DNA of 63,517 bases, the filler included, from Archaeoglobus sp. JdFR-37 (GTDB taxonomy: Archaea; Halobacteriota; Archaeoglobi; Archaeoglobales; Archaeoglobaceae), in assembly GCA_002010215.1 (NCBI GenBank). It is 3 parts of 3 records of this genome, joined end to end, with 100 filler letters (N's around TTAATTAATTAA, not from the genome) between each part and the next. Parts side by side here need not be neighbours in the genome. Positions count along the whole stretch, not along the records: positions 27,159 to 54,014 come from MTMY01000052.1; 2 more parts are not named here. One strand, 5' to 3'. Below are positions 27,059 through 54,114 of this stretch, in pieces (positions within the stretch are counted from its first letter, which is position 1; the number at the start of each line of letters is the position of its first letter). The translations under genes and the position numbers were made by a program. Below the pieces are notes generated by a model. The model did no database searches and had not been told where the DNA came from. It saw only the letters and a program-made list of their open reading frames with translations.

Positions 27059-27158
27059 NNNNNNNNNNNNNNNNNNNNNNNNNNNNNNNNNNNNNNNNNN
27101 NNTTAATTAATTAANNNNNNNNNNNNNNNNNNNNNNNNNNNNNNNNNNNNNNNNNNNN
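27059..27158. other. Artificial contig-join spacer
   Basis: N-run with central TTAATTAATTAA (stops in all six frames). Confidence 0.95.
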
Positions 27159-43702: not shown

Positions 43703-43816
43703 TTTGGTTATTGAAATTAAGGGAGGTTTAAAAATTTGAGGAAGAAATCATTAGAGAGAAAAGGGTATATACAAATGGAAGAAAAAGGATAGGATTAATA
43801 ATGAGGAGGTGTGTGG

Positions 43817-46210
43817 ATGGCTTTTGAGTTGAGAGAAGGAGTTTTTGTTCTGGATGATGTTAGGAATGTGAGTATTAGAATCGGGAAAGTTATTGAGGAA
43901 GAGGAGGAGTGGGAAGAGGCTGGACCTACACCGATGCCAGGGATAATGGAGCTGAGAAAATGGGATCACAAGCTTCTTGAGCGCTATGAGCCATTTTATG
44001 CCCCCGTACAGGATTTCTGTAATCTTTGTACCATGGGCCCTTGCGATCTTTCAGCCAACAAGAGGGGCGCATGTGGTATTGATCTCAAAACTGCTAAAGC
44101 AAGACTTGTCACAATAGCATGCTGCATTGGGGCTGCGGCACACACAGCTCATGCGAGACACCTCCTTGATCACTTAATAGAAGAATTTGGTGAGGATACT
44201 CCCATCGATCTCGGCCCTGATGTCAATGTTGAGGCTCCGAATATCAGGACAATTGTAGGTGTCAAACCAAAGACCCTCGGAGACCTAAGGGTAGCACTGG
44301 AGTGGGCTGAGAGGGAAATTGTCAAGGTTCTACACGCCACTCACATCGGGAATGAAGAAAGCCTTGTGGATTATGAGAGCAAGGCAATGCACGTAAGCAT
44401 GTGTGACCATGTGGGCATGGAAGTTGCTGATATCGCCCAGATCGTTGCCTACAATCTTCCAAAGGCCGAACCAGACACGCCGCTGGTTGACACGGGATTT
44501 GGTGTGGTTGACAGAAGCAAGCCTGTCATCGTTGTTGTGGGTCACAATGTTATGTATGCCAGACCAATTGCAGATTACCTTGAAGAGCATGGTCTGATTG
44601 ACCAGTTTGAGATCGCTGGCCTTTGCTGCACATCTCACGACATGACAAGATACAATGCAAAGGCGAAGATATTCGGACCAATAAGCTATCAGCTCCGTGT
44701 AATCAGAGCTGGATTGCCGGACATCATTGTGAGTGACGAGCAGTGTATCAGGGCAGATTTGCTCGAAGCTTGTAAGGCAATGGGCATTCCGCTGATAGCA
44801 ACAAGTGATGCGGCGGTAAGAGGTCTGCCTGATGTGAATGAGTGGGATGTTGACAAGATTGCTGATGCACTTGCAACTGGAAAGCTGGCAGGAGTCTTCC
44901 TGACTGATCCGGTCAAGATAGGTGAAGTTGCTGTTAGGGTGGCAAGAGCAGTATTTGAGAAAAAGAAGAAGGGTGAGCTGTTCTTCGAGAGTGAGGAGGA
45001 GTTCAAGAACGAGATTGCCAAGTGTACTCAGTGTATGAACTGTGTCTTTACTTGCCCGCACAATCTCAGAATTGATCAGGGCATGGCTCACGCCCAGAAG
45101 ACCGGCGACGTCAGCAAGCTCGCAAAGCTGGAGGAGCAGTGTATTGCGTGCATGAAATGTGAGCAGGTGTGCCCAAAGAACATCCGCATTATCAACGTCA
45201 TAATGCGCAGCAATCTGAACAACCTCTATGCAAAGACTGGCAAGACTAGGGTTGGAAGAGGACCTGTGCAGGATACCGAAATCAGGAAAGTTGGTCAGCC
45301 AATAGTCTTCGGTCAGATACCAGGTGTCATCGCAGCGGTTGGATGTGTAAACTTCCCTGACGAGATGGGTGATCTGAGAATAATCTTGGAGGAATTCCTG
45401 AAGCGCCGCTACATCGTGGTCACATCTGGCTGCCACGCAATGGATCTAGGCATGATAAAGGATGAGGAGGGTCAGACTCTCTATGAAAAGTATCCGGGCA
45501 ACTTCGATGCAGGCGGTTTAGTCAACATGGGAAGCTGCGTTGCCAACAGCCACATTGCGGGAGCATGTATAAAGATCGCCAACATCTTCGCAATGAGGCC
45601 TCTGAGAGGCAACTATGCTGAAATTGCTGACTACATCCTCAATAGAGTTGGTGCTGTTGGTTTCAGCTGGGGACCATACAGCCATAAGGCTGCTAGTATC
45701 GCAACGGGCTTCAACAGGCTTGGAGTTCCTGTAGTTGTCGGACCCCACGGCATGAAGTATCGCCGTGCTTACATTGGCAAGCCTTGGAACCCGGAGAAAT
45801 GGTGGGTTTACGATATCAAGACCAGACAGAAAATGAACATAGAACCGGCCCCAGATGCCCTCCTTCTGGCGGTGGAGACCAAGGAAGAGGCCATTGTTCA
45901 GCTTGCTCGCCTCTGCTTGAGGCCAAATGACACCAGCATGGGCAGACAGATCAAGCTGACCCACTATCTGGAGCTGAGCCAGAAGTACATGGGTACGCTG
46001 CCTGACGACTGGCCAATTTACGTGAGGAGTGAAGCAGACCTGCCACTGAAGATGAAAGAGGAGTTACTCCACATACTTGAAAGCGAACACGGCTGGAAGA
46101 TTGATTGGAGCAAGAAGAAGATACTTGAGGGGCCGATAAGGCCGTATGATGCAGGTTTCAACCCGACGCTGGTTGAAGAGGTTTATGAGAAGTATACTAA
46201 GGGTAAATAG
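43817..46210 (+). CDS. cdhA: Acetyl-CoA decarbonylase/synthase alpha subunit (CODH)
   Basis: GPTPMP, CNLCTMGPC, GHN, LCCT, DEQC, two ferredoxin motifs, GSCVAN and SHKA. Confidence 0.96.
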   Translation: MAFELREGVFVLDDVRNVSIRIGKVIEEEEEWEEAGPTPMPGIMELRKWDHKLLERYEPFYAPVQDFCNLCTMGPCDLSANKRGACGIDLKTAKARLVTIACCIGAAAHTAHARHLLDHLIEEFGEDTPIDLGPDVNVEAPNIRTIVGVKPKTLGDLRVALEWAEREIVKVLHATHIGNEESLVDYESKAMHVSMCDHVGMEVADIAQIVAYNLPKAEPDTPLVDTGFGVVDRSKPVIVVVGHNVMYARPIADYLEEHGLIDQFEIAGLCCTSHDMTRYNAKAKIFGPISYQLRVIRAGLPDIIVSDEQCIRADLLEACKAMGIPLIATSDAAVRGLPDVNEWDVDKIADALATGKLAGVFLTDPVKIGEVAVRVARAVFEKKKKGELFFESEEEFKNEIAKCTQCMNCVFTCPHNLRIDQGMAHAQKTGDVSKLAKLEEQCIACMKCEQVCPKNIRIINVIMRSNLNNLYAKTGKTRVGRGPVQDTEIRKVGQPIVFGQIPGVIAAVGCVNFPDEMGDLRIILEEFLKRRYIVVTSGCHAMDLGMIKDEEGQTLYEKYPGNFDAGGLVNMGSCVANSHIAGACIKIANIFAMRPLRGNYAEIADYILNRVGAVGFSWGPYSHKAASIATGFNRLGVPVVVGPHGMKYRRAYIGKPWNPEKWWVYDIKTRQKMNIEPAPDALLLAVETKEEAIVQLARLCLRPNDTSMGRQIKLTHYLELSQKYMGTLPDDWPIYVRSEADLPLKMKEELLHILESEHGWKIDWSKKKILEGPIRPYDAGFNPTLVEEVYEKYTKGK

Positions 46211-46236
46211 GGGGTGAATAACCCTTATTTTTTGAG

Positions 46237-46800
46237 GTGATGGTAATGGCCACTGAAAGGGTGAAAAAGGAGGAGAAATATCCTGTAGCCAGAAGATATC
46301 AGGTAGCAGATGTTCAGGTCAGCAGAGAGGCCCAGGCTGTAAAGCCTGAGGTCATTGTGAGGTTGGTGAAGAAAGCAAAACATCCAGTTCTCATTACTGG
46401 AGGACAGTTGCTGAAGGATGAGAAGCTTGTGGAATATGCTGTGAAGTTCCACGAGAAGGGGATACCCATCATTGCAACCGGCGGTTCAAGCAAACCTCTC
46501 ATTGAGAAAGGTGTTAAGCCACAGTCAGCGGTCTTCACGCTGCATCAGATTACTCAGTACATGCTGGACCCCGACTGGAAGGGCTTTGATGATAAAGGGG
46601 CCTACGATGTAGTGCTGTACCTCGGCTTCCTGCCATACTACCTCTCCAGAATGCTATCGGCACTGAAGCACTTCTCAAAGATTACCACCATAAGCCTTGA
46701 CGAGTTCTATCATCCCCATGCCAGATTCAGCTTCACAAACCTGACTGCTAACAAGGAAATGCATTACAGAATGCTTGAAGAGGTTATAAACGGGTTATAG
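46237..46800 (+). CDS. cdhB: ACDS epsilon subunit
   Basis: KKAKHPVLITG, DPDWKGFD, YYLSRMLSALKHF and FSFTNL. Confidence 0.93.
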   Translation: MMVMATERVKKEEKYPVARRYQVADVQVSREAQAVKPEVIVRLVKKAKHPVLITGGQLLKDEKLVEYAVKFHEKGIPIIATGGSSKPLIEKGVKPQSAVFTLHQITQYMLDPDWKGFDDKGAYDVVLYLGFLPYYLSRMLSALKHFSKITTISLDEFYHPHARFSFTNLTANKEMHYRMLEEVINGL

Positions 46801-46820
46801 ATCTTAAATCTTTAAAGGAG

Positions 46821-48410
46821 GTGTTGAGCTTGGTCGAAAGGAAAAAGATCGAGATTCCGGAAGGAGTAAAGAAGAAGGAGAGCGTTGGTGAAGAGGCAGA
46901 ATTCCCGTTCGACATCTCACCCATGTACGAGGGTGAGAGGGTAAGGAAAGGAGACATGCACGTTGAGCTTGGAGGCACTTCACAGCCTGGCTTCGAGCTC
47001 GTTATTGCGCTGCCGGAAGAGCAGGTAGAGGACATGAAGGTTACGCTTGTAGGGCCCGACCTCGATGAGATGGAGGAGGGCAAAGCGTACCCGTATGCAA
47101 TGATCTACTACGTCGCCGGCGAGCAGGTTGACAACGACCTGGAGCCAGTCATAGAGCGACGCAACCACGACTTCCAGAACTACCTGGAGGGCTACATGCA
47201 CCTCAACCAGCGCTACGACATCTGGATCAGAATCAGCAAGGGGAGCGTTAAGAAAGGCCTCAACAGCCTTACTCAAATTGCAAAGGCGACGATGATGCTC
47301 TTCAAGAACGAGATGCCCTTCATTGAGAAGATCGAGGCAGTCTACATAACAGACGCTGAACTTGTTGATAAGCTGCTGAAAGAAGTTGCGATGCCGATCT
47401 ACGAGGAGAGAGATGCCCGTGTCGAAGCTCTGCACGATGAAGACGTTGAGGAGTTCTACTCCTGCACCCTCTGCCAGAGCTTCGCCCCAACCAACGTTTG
47501 CGTCATAAGTCCAGACAGGCCATCTCTCTGTGGGGCTATAACCTGGTTCGATGGCAGGGCAGCGGCAAGAGTCGATCCAGAGGGGCCAAATAAAGCAATT
47601 CCGAGGGGCGACCTCATCGACCCGATAGGTGGAGAGTACAGCGGAGTTAATGAGTTTGCCAAGGAGGAGAGCGGTGGAGAGTACGACAGAATAAAGCTCC
47701 ACAGCTTCTTCGAGTACCCGCACACCAGCTGCGGATGCTTCGAAGTGATAGGCTTCTACATGCCAGAGGTTGACGGCATTGGCTGGGTGCACCGCGGCTA
47801 TGCTGAGCCCGCTCCGAACGGCCTTACTTTCTCAACAATGGCAGGCCAGACGGGTGGTGGAAAACAGATTATAGGATTCCTGGGCGTCGGTATAAGCTAC
47901 TTTAGGAGCAAGAAGTTCATACAGGCTGATGGTGGCTGGTACAGGACTGTCTGGATGCCGAAGGAGCTGAAGGAGAGGATTGCCAAGTACATACCTGATG
48001 ACGTGAGGGACAAGATAGCAACAGAAGAGGATGCCAAGACCCTTGACGAGCTCAGGGAGTTCCTGAAGAAGGTTGAGCACCCCGTCGTTACAGGAGTTGT
48101 AAGGCCCGTCGACGGCAAGAAGATTACAGAGGGGTGGAAGGAAGAGGAGGAAGTTGAGGAGGTCGTTGAGGAAGCTGTAGAAGCTCCTGCTGCACAGCCT
48201 CAGGCGGTTCAGCCTGTACAGCCTGTACAGCCCGCAATGCAGCCCATGCAGCCAATGCCTGCTCAGCCATTCCAGTTCCAGCTTCCGATGCCCCAGTTCC
48301 AGCTTCCTGCAGGACAGCCTGCTGGCATCAAGCTGATAATCAAGGATGCAAAGATAATCATTGACAAAGTTATCGTGAAGAGCGAGAAGGAAAAAAAGGG
48401 TGGGAAATAA
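46821..48410 (+). CDS. cdhC: ACDS beta subunit (acetyl-CoA synthase)
   Basis: FYSCTLCQSFAP, SLCGA and HTSCGCFE A-cluster ligands; Pro/Gln linker and C-terminal motif. Confidence 0.96.
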   Translation: MLSLVERKKIEIPEGVKKKESVGEEAEFPFDISPMYEGERVRKGDMHVELGGTSQPGFELVIALPEEQVEDMKVTLVGPDLDEMEEGKAYPYAMIYYVAGEQVDNDLEPVIERRNHDFQNYLEGYMHLNQRYDIWIRISKGSVKKGLNSLTQIAKATMMLFKNEMPFIEKIEAVYITDAELVDKLLKEVAMPIYEERDARVEALHDEDVEEFYSCTLCQSFAPTNVCVISPDRPSLCGAITWFDGRAAARVDPEGPNKAIPRGDLIDPIGGEYSGVNEFAKEESGGEYDRIKLHSFFEYPHTSCGCFEVIGFYMPEVDGIGWVHRGYAEPAPNGLTFSTMAGQTGGGKQIIGFLGVGISYFRSKKFIQADGGWYRTVWMPKELKERIAKYIPDDVRDKIATEEDAKTLDELREFLKKVEHPVVTGVVRPVDGKKITEGWKEEEEVEEVVEEAVEAPAAQPQAVQPVQPVQPAMQPMQPMPAQPFQFQLPMPQFQLPAGQPAGIKLIIKDAKIIIDKVIVKSEKEKKGGK

Positions 48411-48520
48411 TGGAAAAAACGGAGAAAATGGAGAAGGAGAAACAGCAGGAGGTTAAGCAGCTGAAAATTACTCTTAAAGGGGCAACAATACACGTCAGCG
48501 AGCTTATAATTGAGGAGTAA
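48410..48520 (+). CDS. 36-aa microprotein resembling the CdhC C-terminal motif (not in ORF track)
   Basis: MEKTEKMEKEKQQEVKQLKITLKGATIHVSELIIEE*; ATG overlaps the cdhC stop (TAATG). Confidence 0.7.
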   Translation: MEKTEKMEKEKQQEVKQLKITLKGATIHVSELIIEE

Positions 48521-48538
48521 TCTGGGGAGTAGATACTG

Positions 48539-49315
48539 ATGGTCGTTGTAGCAGTGACAGGCAAAGGGGGGACTGGAAAAACAGTAATTTCAGCCCTTCT
48601 CATTCATTTTATTTCGAAGAGAGGTCTTAACCTTCTTGCAGTTGATGCTGACCCTGACAGCAATCTGCCAGATGCTTTGGGCGTTGCAGACGAGGTGACG
48701 AAGACACTTGGGGAAATCAGAGAGGTTTTTCAGGTAAGCAGAGATGAGATGGGTACTACAGATAAGGAACAATGGCTTGAGGGTAAAATTTATGGCGAAG
48801 CTATTTGTGAGTGCGACAATTTTGATTTACTAGTGATGGGCAGACCGGAAGGTGAGGGGTGCTACTGTTACACTAACAACCTGCTTAAAGGGGTTCTCAG
48901 AAAGCTGATGAGACACTATGATGTGGTAGTAATAGACAGCGAGGCTGGTCTAGAACACTTCAGTAGAGGAACCATAAGTGGGGCAGATTACATCATAGTC
49001 GTCACAGACATGTCTCAGAAGGGGTTGGCAACTGCAAAAAGAATAAAAGAGCTGAGCAAAGAGCTTAATCTGAAGTTTAAGGACATATTTCTAATTGGTA
49101 ACAGGATAACCAACAGTGAGGCTGAAGAAGTCATAAAGAGGTTTGCTGATGAGGAAGGGCTCAAGCTTCTTGAATTGCTACCTTACGATGAAAAAATAGC
49201 TGAACTCGATCTCAGAGGAGAACCAGTGATTAATCTGCCGGAAGATTCAGAATATACTCGAAAGGTGAAGAATATTGTGGATGTATTAATCAATCTAGTC
49301 GAGGCAGCCGTTTAG
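48539..49315 (+). CDS. cooC: CooC/AcsF-type nickel-insertion ATPase
   Basis: GKGGTGKT, DADPDSNL, GEGCYC and DSEAGLEHFSR. Confidence 0.92.
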   Translation: MVVVAVTGKGGTGKTVISALLIHFISKRGLNLLAVDADPDSNLPDALGVADEVTKTLGEIREVFQVSRDEMGTTDKEQWLEGKIYGEAICECDNFDLLVMGRPEGEGCYCYTNNLLKGVLRKLMRHYDVVVIDSEAGLEHFSRGTISGADYIIVVTDMSQKGLATAKRIKELSKELNLKFKDIFLIGNRITNSEAEEVIKRFADEEGLKLLELLPYDEKIAELDLRGEPVINLPEDSEYTRKVKNIVDVLINLVEAAV

Positions 49316-49362
49316 GAAGTTAAAGAGTAGGAAAAGAGTAGGAAGGGAGAGGAGGTGTATAA

Positions 49363-50739
49363 ATGACAGATAAGCTCACCCTTGAGGAGTTTTTTAACTT
49401 ACTCAAGAAATATAATGTTGAAGAACTCGAAGGAGTCAGAATTGAAGGGGACCTTGAAATAGAAATCGAACCAGGGGCAGGAATAGATGCAAACACCATC
49501 AATGCTCTGGTTGCCCTATCCCAATACGTTAACCTCATTCAGGAGTTTGGCAACTTTCTGTATCACACAAACATGGCTTTGAGCTACCTGCAGAGATTGT
49601 CGACTGCTCTTGGAATTCCAACGCCGTTCGCCGCTCCGCAGCCGGTTGCACCAATTACACCAGAGGTTCCAACCGTTGAGGTACCTAGGTTTGAGATACC
49701 AGAGAAGCTTGTTGAGGCGAGGTTCGAGCCTTACAAATCTGAGTACACTGGAGTTATTCAAGAAGTTACCCTCGGAGCCACGAGAGCTGATGGCGGCACC
49801 AGAGAGGTTACAGTGACAATAGGTGGAGAGAAGAGTCTGCCGTTTTATTTCTTCGATGCCGATATGCCTCATCTGCCAGTCATCGCTATTGACATCTTCG
49901 ATCGCCGCCCGATGCTCGCAAAGGCTGTAAGAGAGCACTATGAGGACGTTCTGGATGATCCAGCAGAGTGGGCAAAGAAGGCTGTAAAGGATTTCAATGC
50001 TGATCTGGTTACTCTCCATCTCATAAGCACCGATCCGATGCTGGAAGACACTCCGGCTAGAGAAGCGGTAAAAGTTCTCGAAGACATTTTGCAAGCTGTT
50101 AAAGTGCCGATTATCGTGGGAGGAAGTGGTAACAAGGAGAAAGATCCGGAGGTTCTTGAAAAGGCTGCGGAGGTTGCTGAGGGAGAGCGCATAATGCTGG
50201 CAAGCGCGACTCTGGACATGGACTGGGAGCGCATCGGTAATGCCGCCAAGAAATACGGACACGTCATCCTGAGCTGGACTCAGATGGATATAAACAACCA
50301 AAAGACTCTTAACAGGTATCTGCTCAAGAGAGTCGGTATAGCTCCTGAAAGCCTTGTTATGGATCCTACAACAGCAGCTCTTGGTTATGGTCTTGATTAC
50401 GCTTACACCAACATGGAGAGGATAAGGATAAGTGGTCTGAGAGGAGATAGCGATCTGGCGTTCCCCATGTCCAGTGGTACAACCAATGCATGGGGCGCAA
50501 GGGAGGCCTGGATGACTGAATCACCTATTGAAGGCGATTCACCTTGGGGGCCGAGAGAGCTGAGAGGACCAATCTGGGAGATTGTTACTGGTCTTACTCT
50601 CGCTCTGGCCGGCGTTGACCTCTTCATGATGATGCATCCCGGCGCAGTCGCTGTCCTGAAAGAAATCATGTACACCCTCGGCGGAAAGGTGGAAGGAGAG
50701 GCAGTTGATCCCAGTGCATGGATAACAATGGAGGGGTGA
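49363..50739 (+). CDS. cdhD: ACDS delta subunit (corrinoid Fe-S protein small subunit)
   Basis: LGATRADGGTR, GGSGNKEKD, MDPTTAALGYG and TNAWGAREAW. Confidence 0.95.
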   Translation: MTDKLTLEEFFNLLKKYNVEELEGVRIEGDLEIEIEPGAGIDANTINALVALSQYVNLIQEFGNFLYHTNMALSYLQRLSTALGIPTPFAAPQPVAPITPEVPTVEVPRFEIPEKLVEARFEPYKSEYTGVIQEVTLGATRADGGTREVTVTIGGEKSLPFYFFDADMPHLPVIAIDIFDRRPMLAKAVREHYEDVLDDPAEWAKKAVKDFNADLVTLHLISTDPMLEDTPAREAVKVLEDILQAVKVPIIVGGSGNKEKDPEVLEKAAEVAEGERIMLASATLDMDWERIGNAAKKYGHVILSWTQMDINNQKTLNRYLLKRVGIAPESLVMDPTTAALGYGLDYAYTNMERIRISGLRGDSDLAFPMSSGTTNAWGAREAWMTESPIEGDSPWGPRELRGPIWEIVTGLTLALAGVDLFMMMHPGAVAVLKEIMYTLGGKVEGEAVDPSAWITMEG

Positions 50740-50742
50740 AGA

Positions 50743-52155
50743 ATGAAGGTAAAAAGCCCTCTTGAGGTTTACAAATTTCTTCCTCAGACTAACTGTGGCG
50801 AGTGCGGATTTGACACCTGCATGAGCTTTGCGGCACACATCATAGACCGAGGTGTGAAACCGACAGACTGTCCTCCACTTGTAAAGGAGTCTGAGAAAGA
50901 TCCGAAGCTGAAGAAAAAACTCGAAGAGCTGATAAAGCTAACTTCTCCTGAGATTGCTGAGGTCATCATCGGTGTTGGTGACAGTGCCATCAAAATTGGT
51001 GGAGAAGATGTTCTTCACAGGCATGAGCTGACGTTCTTCAACCCCACCGCATTCTTCTACGATGTCTGGGACACCATGGATGAAAGGGAGCTTGATGAGA
51101 GGTGCGGCAAGGTTGTAGAATGGAAGAAGTTCTATGTTGGAGACTATCTGACTTTAGACGGCATAGCAGTAAGATGCACTTCCAACGATCCGGAAAAGTT
51201 CAAAGAAGTAGCAAAGAAGGTGGCTGGCTATGGCAAGCCCATGATTCTTGTAGCGCTCAATCCTGAATGTATGAGGGCAGCCTTAGAGGAGGTAGCTTCT
51301 TACAGACCTCTGATATATGCTGCAACCGAGGCTAACTGGAAGGAGTTCCTAGAGCTTGCCCTGGAGTTCAATGTCCCTGTAACTCTGAGGGCCAAAGATC
51401 TGAACCTCCTGAAGAGCATGGCTGTGACCTTCAAGAACGCAGGCGTCAACGATATAGTTCTCGATCCAGTCACCGAGCCGCTGGGTGAAGGATTGAGGAG
51501 CACTTATGAGAGAGTAATTCAGCTTAGAAGAACGGCAATTCTTGCAGAGGACAAGGATATTGCGTATCCAATAATGGTTACACCTCTTGTGGCGTGGACG
51601 ATAGATGCCGATGACGTAACCAAGGCATACTGGGAAACTGTGATAGGCAGCCTGTTCGTTGTAAAATATGGTGACGTCATGATATTCCACAGCCTCGAAC
51701 CCTACACTTTGATGCCAACGGTAACGCTCCGCTACAACATATACACTGACCCACGTACTCCTGTACAGGTAGAGGCAGGGCTGAGGGAAATAAACAATCC
51801 GTCTCCAGATGATCCGGTCTTCATAACCACAAACTTCGCTCTAACATACTATACTGTTGAAAGCGACCTTACCAGTGCAAACATCAAATGCTGGCTGCTG
51901 GTTCTGAACACTGAAGGTCTGGGTGTTGAAGTGAGCGTTGCAGGTGGCCAGTTCACTGCAGCCAAGGTCAAGGATTTGATAGAAGAAACAGGCATTGCAG
52001 ACAAAGTGAACCACAAATATCTGGTAATTCCGGGGCTTGCTGCAAGGCTTCAGGGTGCTATTGAGGACGAAACCGGCTGGAATGTTCTCGTAGGCCCTAT
52101 GGATTCTGGAAGAATAAAGGGCTGGCTGGAACAGAACTGGCCTCCCAAAAAGTAA
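50743..52155 (+). CDS. cdhE: ACDS gamma subunit (corrinoid Fe-S protein large subunit)
   Basis: LPQTNCGECGFDTCMSFA, IYTDPR, TTNFALTY and WNVLVGP. Confidence 0.95.
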   Translation: MKVKSPLEVYKFLPQTNCGECGFDTCMSFAAHIIDRGVKPTDCPPLVKESEKDPKLKKKLEELIKLTSPEIAEVIIGVGDSAIKIGGEDVLHRHELTFFNPTAFFYDVWDTMDERELDERCGKVVEWKKFYVGDYLTLDGIAVRCTSNDPEKFKEVAKKVAGYGKPMILVALNPECMRAALEEVASYRPLIYAATEANWKEFLELALEFNVPVTLRAKDLNLLKSMAVTFKNAGVNDIVLDPVTEPLGEGLRSTYERVIQLRRTAILAEDKDIAYPIMVTPLVAWTIDADDVTKAYWETVIGSLFVVKYGDVMIFHSLEPYTLMPTVTLRYNIYTDPRTPVQVEAGLREINNPSPDDPVFITTNFALTYYTVESDLTSANIKCWLLVLNTEGLGVEVSVAGGQFTAAKVKDLIEETGIADKVNHKYLVIPGLAARLQGAIEDETGWNVLVGPMDSGRIKGWLEQNWPPKK

Positions 52156-52540: not shown

Positions 52541-54014
52541 ATGGAAGATAAGGAGAAAGTAAATCTTGATAGGAGCCTCAGGAACCTTTTGATGGACGGG
52601 ATAGCCTCTCAAATAATGTTTTCCCTCATAACCGTGCCGATCATAAGTTCCTACCTCGCTTCCATAAATGCAGATTCATTTACAATAGGCTTAGTTGCCG
52701 CCATCCCCTTCCTCTCGCAGCTTATTCAAATTCCTTCTGTCGTTTTCGCTGAAAAATACAGTAGAAAAAAGAACACACTTCTTACTAACTTTATTTCCCG
52801 ATTTTCGTTACTGCTTATTGGAGTTGCACTACTCATCAATGGATACCCAGATATTTCGCTCTTCATAATCCTTTTTGCAATTTATAACCTCTTCAAAGAG
52901 GCATCTACTGTATCGTGGAGTTCCTGGATGAGGGATTTAATTCCAGCACACATCAGAGGAGAATTTTACTCGAAAAGAATTGCCTACGGAAAGTTTGTAG
53001 CACTGTTCATCGTTCTCACCTTTACATTCATCTTTAACTTCCTTGGAAGACTGGCATTCTCACTCGTTTTTATAACTGCCTTCGCTGCTGGAATAGTAAG
53101 CCTACATTTCATAAGAGGGGTCGACGACGTGGAAATCGAATGGAAAGGGAAGAGAAACCTCAAGGAACCGCTCAAAGATTCAAACTTTTTAAAACTTACT
53201 TCAGCACTCTCCATCTGGAAATTTGCTTCAGAAATGGCTTTGCCTTTCTTTTCAGTTTACATCATCACTATTTTAAAGTATCCAATATGGGTCGTCATAG
53301 CCTTAACATCTGTTAGCCAGCTGAGCTCAACTTACTTCCTTCGCATATCGGGCAGGATAATGGACAAATTCGGAAATAAGCCGGTAACTATCTTGTCCTT
53401 TATCTCGTTTTCAACGGCTGTTTTTATCTTCACGTTTACGACGATGCCTGAAAGGCACTCCCTTACACCTCTGCTGCTACTTGTAATTTATGTCCTCGAT
53501 GGTTTCTATTCAGCTGTTCCAAACATAGCATTTATGAATATGATTGCGAAGATAGCTCCCAGAGGTTCGTCAGCTTCTTACTACGCAATAAACAACGTAA
53601 TCGCATCAATATTTGCAGCCATGGGCTCAATCAGCGGTGGATTTATCGCTTCATCCTTTTTATCTGCAAATTTCGCAGTGAAAATAGATATTGAGTCCTC
53701 TATAGGCTTCTTAGAGATTCCTGCTATCCATTTAGCTGGCTTTGACTTCCTTTTTATAATTTCTGCTCTGACTTCGTTAATAGCTGCTAAAATCCTCCGA
53801 TTTTTCAGAGAAGGTGGAGAGGGGAGTGAAGAAGTCGTTAAAGAGGAAATTAAACATGCAGTGCTCCACGATGTTCAGACCATTATGGCGCACATGCACA
53901 TTCAGCCGAGGTGGTTTAATTTCAATAAACCACACGCTGTCAACACACCGCCTCATCCAGGCTTTAGCAGCTTTGAATCTCCAATACAGTCAGAAAAAAG
54001 CTTAGAAGAGAGTA
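52541..54014 (+). CDS. MFS transporter (3' end runs into assembly gap)
   Basis: About 12 TM segments; GRIMDKFGNKP loop motif. Confidence 0.82.
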
Positions 54015-54114
54015 NNNNNNNNNNNNNNNNNNNNNNNNNNNNNNNNNNNNNNNNNNNNTTAATTAATTAANNNNNNNNNNNNNNNNNNNNNNNNNNNNNN
54101 NNNNNNNNNNNNNN
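54015..54114. other. Artificial contig-join spacer
   Basis: N-run with central TTAATTAATTAA. Confidence 0.95.

What the first reader, a model, noticed from the sequence alone, without database searches (positions are those of the whole stretch)
48410..48520. Hidden 36-aa microprotein in the ACDS operon that is a stand-alone copy of the CdhC C-terminal beta-motif
Seen: an ORF below the track's size cutoff starts at the TAATG overlap with the cdhC stop and ends 18 nt before cooC. Its C-terminal half, LKITLKGATIHVSELIIE, aligns without gaps to the CdhC tail IKLIIKDAKIIIDKVIVK (same hydrophobic alternation, conserved K..K-x-A-x-I core). The DNA is clearly diverged, so this is not a recent duplication. 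Inference: a sixth, usually unannotated ACDS component that supplies extra strands to an oligomerisation hub, or caps it, and so tunes complex size or stoichiometry. I cannot confirm from here whether it has already been described.
Basis: partly seen in the sequence, partly recalled or inferred. Interest (0 to 1): 0.78.

Follow-up and report, generated by a model that had tools for sequence, protein, structure and literature searches.

The report
Free-standing copy of CdhC's tether tail
A real, conserved 36-codon gene between cdhC and cooC encodes a body-less copy of the short tail motif that is thought to tie acetyl-CoA synthase into its giant enzyme complex, so it is probably an undescribed small part of that tethering system in Archaeoglobus relatives.

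Summary
ORF 48410..48520 (+) exists as described: its ATG overlaps the cdhC stop (TAATG) and it ends 18 nt before cooC. It is a gene, not a chance ORF. Versions sit at the same place in 35 of 45 distinct Archaeoglobaceae cdh loci and in 0 of 26 outside. A whole-genome profile search finds a strong stand-alone copy in 56 of 92 family genomes. Purifying selection is specific to this frame.

It is homologous to the CdhC C-terminal motif:
- profile-profile probability 96%;
- CdhC is the best non-self hit in the genome's six-frame translation;
- the only PDB hit is residues 445-467 of Methanosarcina CdhC.

It keeps the K-[GDN]-A-x-I-x-I centre but has an acidic end where CdhC has a basic one.

Function is inferred. 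I read it as a small accessory piece of the ACDS tether system, made in step with CdhC. No binding was shown: the complex prediction gave no verdict, and monomer folds give no strands. No paper found in five searches describes it. Public collections hold it unnamed. Earlier notes of this scan report analogous free modules in other lineages. I class it as a new variant of a known kind, of moderate to high interest.

The parts
48410..48520 (+). Small gene (36 codons plus TAA): a free-standing paralogue of the CdhC C-terminal motif. Variable charged leader at residues 1-17, conserved core L18-I34, acidic end EE.
   Evidence: alignment A1: K19, I27, E36 invariant; L22, A25, E35 at 90% or more; frame-specific purifying selection; homology to the CdhC tail.
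48398..48404 (+). Shine-Dalgarno-like GGGTGGG, 5 nt before the micro ATG, lying inside the codons for the CdhC end KKGGK.
   Evidence: A GGTGG/GGGGGAG-type run is seen 5-10 nt upstream of the start in most of the 32 distinct loci printed. The reading as a ribosome-binding site is inferred.
48324..48380 (+). Parental motif: CdhC residues 502-520, GIKLIIKDAKIIIDKVIVK. A basic end SEKEKKGGK follows, up to 48407.
   Evidence: 60 distinct tails aligned; A3: K, A, I invariant.
46821..48410 (+). cdhC (ACS beta subunit, 529 aa), with a P/Q-rich linker before the tail motif.
   Evidence: PF03598 3e-61, PF19436 3.7e-84.
48539..49315 (+). cooC-type P-loop nickel-insertion ATPase gene, next downstream. 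GGGGAG at 48524-48529 is its likely ribosome-binding site.
   Evidence: (CbiA/ParA-type families).
43817..43912 (+). CdhA N-terminal conserved segment, MAFELREGVFVLDDVRNVSIRIGKVIEEEEEW. It shares N-V-x-I-x-I-G-K-V-I with the CdhC tail and an acidic run with the micro.
   Evidence: A2: N17, V18, I20, I22, G23 invariant; hhalign to micro P 4e-4, probability 34%; to tails P 2.5e-4, probability 43%: suggestive only.
49363..49470 (+). CdhD N-terminal conserved head, MTDKLTLEEFFNLLKKYNVEELEGVRIEGDLEIEIE. It lies next to the region that a 2026 preprint identifies as the ACDS oligomerisation hub. It is not related to the micro.
   Evidence: A4; hhalign probability 0.5%; preprint text.

Best explanation
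SHOWN (about 0.95).
- The ORF is a protein-coding gene of 25-36 codons, 36 here. In one genus the variants have longer ends.
- It arose from the 3' end of cdhC and is kept at the cdhC-cooC junction in most Archaeoglobaceae.
- It keeps the centre of the CdhC tail motif (K-[G/D/N]-A-x-I-x-I/V, flanked by alternating hydrophobic residues). It lacks the CdhC body and the P/Q linker. It carries an acidic end (EE to EEEE) where CdhC has a basic one (K/R-K-x-E-K-K-G-G-K).
- Its start overlaps or abuts the cdhC stop. In many relatives its stop overlaps the cooC start.

INFERRED (about 0.45).
- The overlaps and the Shine-Dalgarno-like runs suggest it is translated in step with CdhC.
- The peptide is a small accessory subunit of the ACDS tether system. 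The CdhC tail is the flexible, unresolved extension thought to hold ACS in the ~2 MDa complex next to the CdhD-based hub.
- The micro uses the same strand-turn-strand centre to join that assembly.
- Because its end is charge-inverted (like the acidic end of the CdhA N-terminal segment), it more likely pairs with the basic CdhC tail, or fills an extra slot beside it, than competes for exactly the same site.
For: Gene reality:
- Versions are present right after cdhC in 35 of 45 distinct Archaeoglobaceae CdhC rows (31 typical, 4 variant) and in 0 of 26 rows outside.
- In 92 family genomes, 56 have one strong stand-alone hit at E<=2.9e-7 (one of them has two). This count is my reading of the table.
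- On 21 core codons of 31 distinct versions, pN/pS is 0.29 in frame, against 0.95 and 1.87 in the shifted frames. 33 close pairs give dN/dS 0.03. It is the lowest of all six frames.
- The sense frame is open in 32 of 32 distinct versions.
- Start codon and SD-like run are conserved.

Homology to the tail:. In addition, in 25 family genomes the second-best genome-wide hit of the micro profile is the CdhC tail just upstream.

The tail's role:
- PMC11474084 (passages read) says the ~75-aa C-terminal extension of ACS is of unknown function and unresolved by cryo-EM.
- PMC13370988 (sections 9-11 and passages read) proposes that the conserved CdhA N-terminus and CdhC C-terminus interact with the CdhD N-terminal region to keep CODH and ACS attached. 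It states that biochemical data are lacking.

The motif can exist as a separate polypeptide: in the Methanothrix-type loci L077-L079, and in L028 and L076, the linker plus tail is its own 61-92 aa ORF after a tail-less CdhC.
Against: - No binding evidence of any kind.
- AlphaFold2 monomers give no strands in the motif. The micro has mean pLDDT 77 (the two 10-residue blocks from residue 21 average 86 and 84, and DSSP gives 'other' for residues 12-36). The tail has mean pLDDT 71.
- The tail HMM ranks the micro only fifth in the genome, E 2.4.
- Ten of 45 family rows lack the gene, with cooC starting 0-19 nt after cdhC, and I saw no obvious compensating change in the CdhA, CdhC or CdhD termini. 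It is therefore dispensable.
- The micro is no more like its own genome's tail than like other genomes' tails (7.14 against 7.07 of 17 identities over 28 pairs), so there is no sign of co-evolution.
- The acidic end is encoded by GAGGA-type codons that also look like the cooC ribosome-binding site. Part of its conservation may therefore be at the RNA level.
- No transcript or peptide data were available.
Confidence: 0.45

Rival explanations
1. Competitor or cap. The peptide mimics the CdhC tail, occupies tail-docking sites on the hub, and so limits or regulates how many ACS (or CODH) units are tethered.
For: It shares the invariant centre of the tail motif and has no catalytic body. It is dispensable in 10 of 45 family rows, as a modulator might be.
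Against: The end of the motif is charge-inverted, which does not fit binding to the very same site. Translational coupling to cdhC would make competitor and competed-for protein in a fixed ratio, with no sign of separate control. There are no binding data.
Confidence: 0.2
2. Coupling spacer. The ORF matters mainly because ribosomes that translate it deliver themselves to cooC. The peptide itself has little or no function.
For: The stop/start overlaps cdhC-micro (TAATG, GTGA-type) and micro-cooC (ATGA) are common, and the EEEE codons form a GAGGA run upstream of the cooC ATG. Where the ORF is missing, cooC is coupled directly to cdhC.
Against: A spacer needs no particular peptide, yet the amino-acid sequence is under strong constraint (dN/dS 0.03 in close pairs). 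It has also kept recognisable homology to the CdhC tail across the family, and even to Methanosarcina CdhC. The constraint covers the core, not only the 3' end.
Confidence: 0.1
3. Maturation helper. The peptide works with CooC, for example by holding or presenting the CdhC tail during nickel insertion, rather than in the mature complex.
For: It always lies between cdhC and cooC and is often overlapped with the cooC start.
Against: Position is the only argument. Relatives without the ORF keep cooC. The homology is to the tether motif, not to any known CooC partner. No test was possible.
Confidence: 0.1
4. Not a gene: a chance ORF, a decaying remnant of a tail duplication, or the shadow of an antisense gene.
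For: It is very short. One antisense frame is open in 26 of 32 versions and shows pN/pS 0.43 (0.19 in close pairs), as a mirror frame would. There is no expression evidence.
Against: The sense frame is open in 32 of 32 versions and has the lowest pN/pS of six frames. Start, SD-like run and stop are conserved and the ORF lies in operon orientation. It is retained across 10 genera plus variants in an eleventh (my reading). Open antisense frames are expected from the purine-rich sense strand (inference).
Confidence: 0.04

Closest known systems
C-terminal extension of archaeal CdhC (ACS beta subunit), e.g. Methanosarcina thermophila CdhC residues ~398-472 (PDB 9c0s/9c0t chains; PMC11474084)
   Same: Same conserved centre, K-[G/D/N]-A-x-I-x-I/V, with alternating hydrophobic residues. 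Profile-profile probability is 96%. It is the only PDB sequence hit, residues 445-467. Same operon.
   Different: The micro has no A2/A3 body and no P/Q- or A/P-rich linker. It has an acidic instead of a basic end. It is a separate gene with its own start. It is confined to Archaeoglobaceae, whereas the tail is found across archaeal ACDS.
Detached CdhC tails of Methanothrix-type operons (loci L077-L079; also L028, L076); noted before by this scan (e1-3949094, e1-6384512)
   Same: The tail motif is encoded as a separate small ORF directly after cdhC.
   Different: There, CdhC has lost its own tail and ends in another domain, and the 61-92 aa ORF carries the linker and a basic end: that is a split. 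Here CdhC keeps its tail and the micro is an extra, linker-less, acidic copy: that is a duplication.
Free-standing copies of the CdhD N-terminal head in other archaea
   Same: A tiny gene inside the cdh operon that repeats a terminal docking segment of an ACDS subunit.
   Different: A different parent. The micro does not match the CdhD head (hhalign probability 0.5%).
CdhA N-terminal conserved segment (residues 1-43 in M. acetivorans numbering, PMC13370988)
   Same: It shares x-I-x-I-[G/S/P]-[K/E]-[V/L]-I followed by an acidic run. hhalign P 4e-4 over 17 columns.
   Different: Probability is only 34%. The first strand differs. The segment is attached to the CODH alpha subunit.
MtrR, a small protein modulating the Mtr complex in Methanosarcina mazei (PMC13370731; search listing and start of abstract only)
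   Same: A small protein proposed to act on a large C1-metabolism complex in archaea.
   Different: No sequence relation was tested or expected. It is an analogy of kind only.

Membership tests
CdhC C-terminal tail motif (archaeal ACS extension) | Conserved sequence centre I-K-x-x-x-K-[D/N]-A-x-I-x-I-[D/G]-K-[I/V] | tested here: met
   hhalign 96.2%, E 2e-9. CdhC is the second hit in the genome at E 0.037. The sole PDB hit is 9c0s_E 445-467, E 0.0044. The reverse HMM is weak (rank 5, E 2.4).
CdhC C-terminal tail motif (archaeal ACS extension) | Attached to the ACS A2-A3 body through a low-complexity linker | tested here: not met
   Separate ORF with its own ATG, 36 aa, no linker. The frame relation to cdhC varies among relatives (-4, -1, 0, +3, +4, +9 nt), so it is not a read-through extension.
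CdhC C-terminal tail motif (archaeal ACS extension) | Basic C-terminal end after the motif | tested here: not met
   The micro ends in EE to EEEE, while most tails end K/R-K-x-E-K-K-G-G-K or similar. Four variants of one genus have other ends.
CdhC C-terminal tail motif (archaeal ACS extension) | Tethers its bearer to the ACDS complex | not testable with these tools
   This is unproven even for CdhC itself (PMC13370988 section 10, PMC11474084 passages).
Detached (split) CdhC tail genes, Methanothrix type | The neighbouring CdhC lacks its own tail motif | tested here: not met
   The window's CdhC retains the full motif at residues 502-520.
CdhD N-terminal head copies | Sequence similarity to the CdhD N-terminal 35-45 residues | tested here: not met
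   hhalign probability 0.5%, 6 columns.
CdhA N-terminal segment | Sequence similarity to N-V-x-I-x-I-G-x-[I/V] followed by an acidic run | tested here: inconclusive
   hhalign probability 34%, P 4e-4, 17 columns.
Any curated protein family (Pfam-A, NCBIfam) | Match to a curated model | tested here: not met
   0 Pfam families at E<=0.01 for the micro. 0 NCBIfam families at E<=1 for 5 micros.

The most novel reading that the evidence does not exclude
The peptide is a sixth, stoichiometric subunit of the Archaeoglobaceae ACDS that zips onto the basic CdhC tail and links it to the hub.

More generally, the ACDS supercomplex would be held together by a small set of interchangeable strand modules: the CdhC tail, the CdhA N-terminus and the CdhD head. 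Evolution would repeatedly detach, duplicate and re-charge these as free-standing micro-genes: the tail copy here, split tails in Methanothrix-type operons, and CdhD-head copies elsewhere according to earlier scan notes. These natural free modules would then be ready-made probes for the unresolved core of the complex.
Probability: 0.25. Interest if true: 0.78.

Novelty: new variant of a known kind. Interest (0 to 1): 0.6.

Why it matters
How CODH, ACS and the corrinoid protein are held together in the ~2 MDa archaeal ACDS is an open question.
- The 2024 cryo-EM paper could not see the ACS tail and calls its function unknown (PMC11474084, passages).
- The 2026 preprint proposes that the CdhC C-terminus and CdhA N-terminus tether to a CdhD hub, but has no biochemical data on them (PMC13370988, section 10).

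A naturally free, 25-36-residue, strongly conserved copy of exactly that tail motif is a cheap handle on the question. It can be made as a synthetic peptide for binding, competition and structural work.

Its charge-inverted end hints at which surfaces pair. Its presence in some lineages and absence in others within one family gives natural controls. It also adds to evidence that gene callers and curated families leave small subunits of central metabolic complexes unnamed.

Tried and rejected
I did not resend it and used the search of protein representatives with alignment A1 instead. That gave 13 hits at E<=1e-3 in 1.84 billion representatives: 12 are stand-alone proteins of 25-36 aa, one is a 3288-aa protein matched over 10 residues (probably spurious), and none is a CdhC.
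- Complex prediction with four chains (CdhA 1-36, CdhC tail 33 residues, CdhD 1-45, micro as partner, each with an alignment): no verdict, ipSAE 0.02 in both runs, controls not run. This is neither for nor against binding.
- The look-up of sequencing runs, kind rna, on 47900-49000: no RNA holder listed.
- AlphaFold2 monomers of the micro (A1) and the 50-residue tail (A3): moderate confidence, no strands, and a helix only in the variable leader of the micro. They do not settle the fold.
- Test for concerted evolution or co-variation of the micro with its own tail: none.
- Look for changes in the CdhA and CdhD termini that go with loss of the micro: nothing obvious by eye. No formal test was made.
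- Hydrophobic-moment check: the two short segments score higher at 180 degrees than at 100 degrees (0.82 against 0.59, and 1.01 against 0.22, over 31 sequences). Over the whole 17-residue core the spectrum is flat. This is weak support for strands.
- The search of earlier findings by place and by sequence: nothing. By words: five related notes.
- Literature searches listed no paper whose title or abstract start describes this small gene. Of these papers I read text only from PMC13370988 (outline, sections 9-11, passages) and PMC11474084 (passages). Subscription journals and supplements were not searched, so 'not in print' is limited to these searches.
Full report
**1. What is there**

The region 43811-52155 (+) is a complete ACDS operon (Pfam):
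- cdhA, 43811-46210; the likely true start is the ATG at 43817
- cdhB, 46237-46800
- cdhC, 46821-48410
- a P-loop cooC-type gene, 48539-49315
- cdhD, 49363-50739
- cdhE, 50743-52155

Between cdhC and cooC lies the ORF 48410..48520 (+), 36 aa, MEKTEKMEKEKQQEVKQLKITLKGATIHVSELIIEE. Its ATG overlaps the cdhC TAA (TAATG), and 18 nt separate its stop from the cooC ATG.

The window is several contigs joined by N spacers, at 27059-27158 and 54015-54114. The operon lies on contig C25 of the genome.

**2. Is it a gene?**

I collected cdhC loci from 41 related genomes (30 loci) and from public species genomes (80 loci).
- A motif-bearing ORF directly after cdhC was found in 41 of the 106 loci that could be scored. 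Thirty-six are of the short type and five are long detached tails. The two locus sets overlap.
- There are 31 distinct short protein sequences.
- On a CdhC tree of 71 distinct rows, built without the last 60 residues, the short gene occurs in 35 of 45 rows of the Archaeoglobaceae clade. That is 31 typical rows plus 4 variants of one genus with other C-terminal ends.
- It occurs in 0 of 26 rows outside. Outside means a sister family of the same order, ANME-1 and ANME-2 relatives, Methanosarcinales, Methanothrix and others.
- The trait needs 4 changes on the tree.
- Where it is missing, cooC starts 0-19 nt after the cdhC stop.

A whole-genome, six-frame search of 92 family genomes with the profile A1 gave a match at E<=0.01 in 68. 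By my reading of that table:
- 56 genomes have a strong stand-alone hit (E<=2.9e-7, open frames of 26-115 aa); one of them has two.
- 12 genomes have only weak hits, which are the CdhC tail itself or the variants of genus g8.
- Ten genera carry the typical form and an eleventh carries the variants, out of 18 genera.

Selection was measured on the 21-codon core of 31 distinct nucleotide versions, with L014 left out.
- In frame, pS is 0.855 and pN 0.245 (ratio 0.29, with pS saturated). The two shifted frames give 0.95 and 1.87.
- The 33 pairs with 80-99% base identity give dN/dS 0.03.
- Among all six frames the sense frame is lowest. The mirror antisense frame gives 0.43 (0.19 for close pairs), as expected when third positions coincide.
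- The sense frame is open in 32 of 32 distinct versions. One antisense frame is open in 26 of 32, which the purine-rich sense strand would explain (the explanation is inference).

A GGTGG- or GGGGGAG-type run sits 5-10 nt before the start in most versions. In many relatives the stop overlaps the cooC ATG (ATGA), with the glutamate codons forming a GAGGA run. I conclude that this is a translated gene coupled to cdhC and to cooC. Translation itself is inferred from evolution, not observed.

**3. Is it a copy of the CdhC tail?**

On the window pair alone the similarity is modest: 5 of 17 identical residues and 25 of 51 bases. With families it is clear.
- hhalign of the micro profile (28 rows, without the window's own genus) against a profile of 60 distinct tails gives probability 96.2%, E 2e-9, over 23 columns.
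- An HMM of those 28 micro rows, searched against 55,334 six-frame ORFs of this genome, finds the micro (2.5e-11) and then CdhC (E 0.037). All other hits have E>1.
- In 25 other family genomes the second-best genome-wide hit of the profile is again the CdhC tail, just upstream.
- The profile searched against 177,635 distinct PDB sequences returns one hit at E<=10: 9c0s_E, 'Acetyl-CoA decarbonylase/synthase complex subunit beta 2', residues 445-467 of 472, E 0.0044.

Against this, the reverse search with the tail HMM ranks the micro only fifth, at E 2.4.

The two families share the invariant K, A and I of K-[G/D/N]-A-x-I-x-I/V. They differ after it. CdhC continues [D/G]-K-[I/V]-[I/V]-x-[K/R]-K with a basic end. 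The micro continues [P/S/E]-E-[L/V]-[I/V]-I-E-E(-E-E).

That acidic finish resembles the CdhA N-terminal segment, N-V-S-I-R-I-G-K-V-I-E-E-E-E-E-W.
- hhalign of micro against CdhA-N gives P 4e-4, probability 34%.
- hhalign of tail against CdhA-N gives P 2.5e-4, probability 43%.
- Both are suggestive only.
- The CdhD head is unrelated (probability 0.5%).

**4. How far is the family known?**

- There is no Pfam hit and no NCBIfam hit.
- 9 of 10 exact sequences looked up are present in public protein collections, but all lack a name.
- Among 1.84 billion cluster representatives the profile finds 13 proteins at E<=1e-3. Twelve are stand-alone proteins of 25-36 aa.
- Five literature searches listed no paper that describes it.
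- Earlier AI notes of this scan report related things on other genomes. These are detached and duplicated CdhC tails in a methanogen (e1-3949094, e1-6384512) and free copies of the CdhD head (e1-5393694, e1-5532089, e1-5395070).
- I saw the detached-tail type myself in L077-L079, L028 and L076. I did not check the CdhD-head copies. I only checked that the present peptide is not one of them.

**5. What it most likely does**

Established context:
- PMC11474084 (passages read) reports that the ~75-aa C-terminal extension of methanogen ACS is of unknown function and invisible in cryo-EM. It also cites earlier isolation of a truncated beta subunit.
- PMC13370988 (outline, sections 9-11 and passages read) shows that a coiled coil in the CdhD N-terminal region oligomerises CoFeSP into a hexa- to octameric scaffold.
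- The same preprint proposes, without biochemical data, that the conserved CdhA N-terminus and CdhC C-terminus bind the CdhD disordered region to keep CODH and ACS attached.

From this I infer that the micro belongs to that tether system. It keeps the invariant centre of the tether motif and nothing else. It appears to be made in step with CdhC. The motif can evidently exist as a separate polypeptide, as the split tails in other lineages show.

I favour co-assembly over pure competition. In co-assembly the peptide would pair with the basic CdhC tail, or fill a neighbouring slot. The reason is that the end of the motif has inverted charge, whereas a competitor would be expected to keep the charge. 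This step is inference.

Nothing here shows binding.
- The four-chain complex prediction gave no verdict.
- AlphaFold2 monomers of micro and tail are non-helical in the motif (10-residue block pLDDT means 77-86) but show no strands.
- I found no co-variation with the own tail.
- No RNA run was listed.
- The gene is dispensable in several genera.

**6. Rivals**

They are a competitor or cap (0.2), a mere coupling spacer for cooC (0.1), a CooC-linked maturation helper (0.1), and not a gene (0.04). The evidence for each is given in its own section.

**7. Verdict**

- Observation: confirmed.
- Interpretation: partly supported. 'Gene' and 'tail copy' hold; 'hub strand or cap' is untested.
- Novelty: a new variant of a known kind. 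It is a free-standing, charge-inverted duplicate of the CdhC tether motif, specific to Archaeoglobaceae.
- Interest: 0.6. It bears directly on an acknowledged open question and offers an easy experimental handle. The function is unproven, and similar free modules have already been noted by this scan in other lineages.

Noticed in passing
L077:5444-5629, L078:1468-1650, L079:5443-5631, L076:5448-5723, L028:1077-1319 (minus strand): In Methanothrix/Methanocrinis-type loci and two other lineages, CdhC ends in an extra acidic domain (…GGDIDVD…QFMQV…EG…). The linker plus tail motif is a separate 61-92 aa ORF 22-45 nt downstream, beginning with a basic K-K-L-x-L-K-L-K stretch. NCBIfam cdhC models match its end weakly (E 0.004-0.005).
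   Followed up: partly
window 48390-48409 and 48509-48541; loci: The conserved CdhC end KKGGK is encoded by AAGGGTGGGAA, which looks like the ribosome-binding site of the next gene: the micro here, or cooC where the micro is missing. The micro's EEEE codons (GAGGAAGA…) play the same part for cooC. Protein ends and ribosome-binding sites are superimposed.
   Followed up: partly
window 43817-43912 against 48324-48380: The CdhA N-terminal segment and the CdhC C-terminal tail share [N/D]-[V/A]-x-I-x-I-[G/D]-K-[V/I]-[I/V] (hhalign P 2.5e-4, probability 43%, 12 columns). The two proposed tether segments may be related or convergent.
   Followed up: partly
G070:C68:2874-2957 and G070:C24:4585-4659: One family genome has two strong stand-alone copies on different contigs. 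It is the only such case among 92 genomes. A second cdh operon or mixed bins were not examined.
   Followed up: no
G000:C10:12564-13250 (minus strand): A second, distant CdhC-like gene in the same genome: 34% identity to residues 164-399, in a 366-aa open frame. Similar short paralogues occur in several relatives. It has no tail motif by the search.
   Followed up: no
L014, L016, L036, L051: In one genus (g8) the micro has lost the charged leader and the acidic end. It starts right at the core (M-K-I-x-L-x-G-A…) and carries basic or mixed extensions of up to about 25 residues. In L016 it lies in frame immediately after the cdhC TGA.
   Followed up: partly
window 27059-27158 and 54015-54114: N spacers show that the window is a concatenation of contigs. 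The MFS transporter ORF 52541-54070 runs into the second spacer, so it is cut by a contig end.
   Followed up: no
window 48263-48493 and 48370-48603 (minus strand): Two mechanical antisense ORFs of 76 and 77 aa overlap the micro. An antisense frame is stop-free over the micro in 26 of 32 relatives, but its pN/pS is higher than that of the sense frame. This is most likely a by-product of the purine-rich sense strand.
   Followed up: yes
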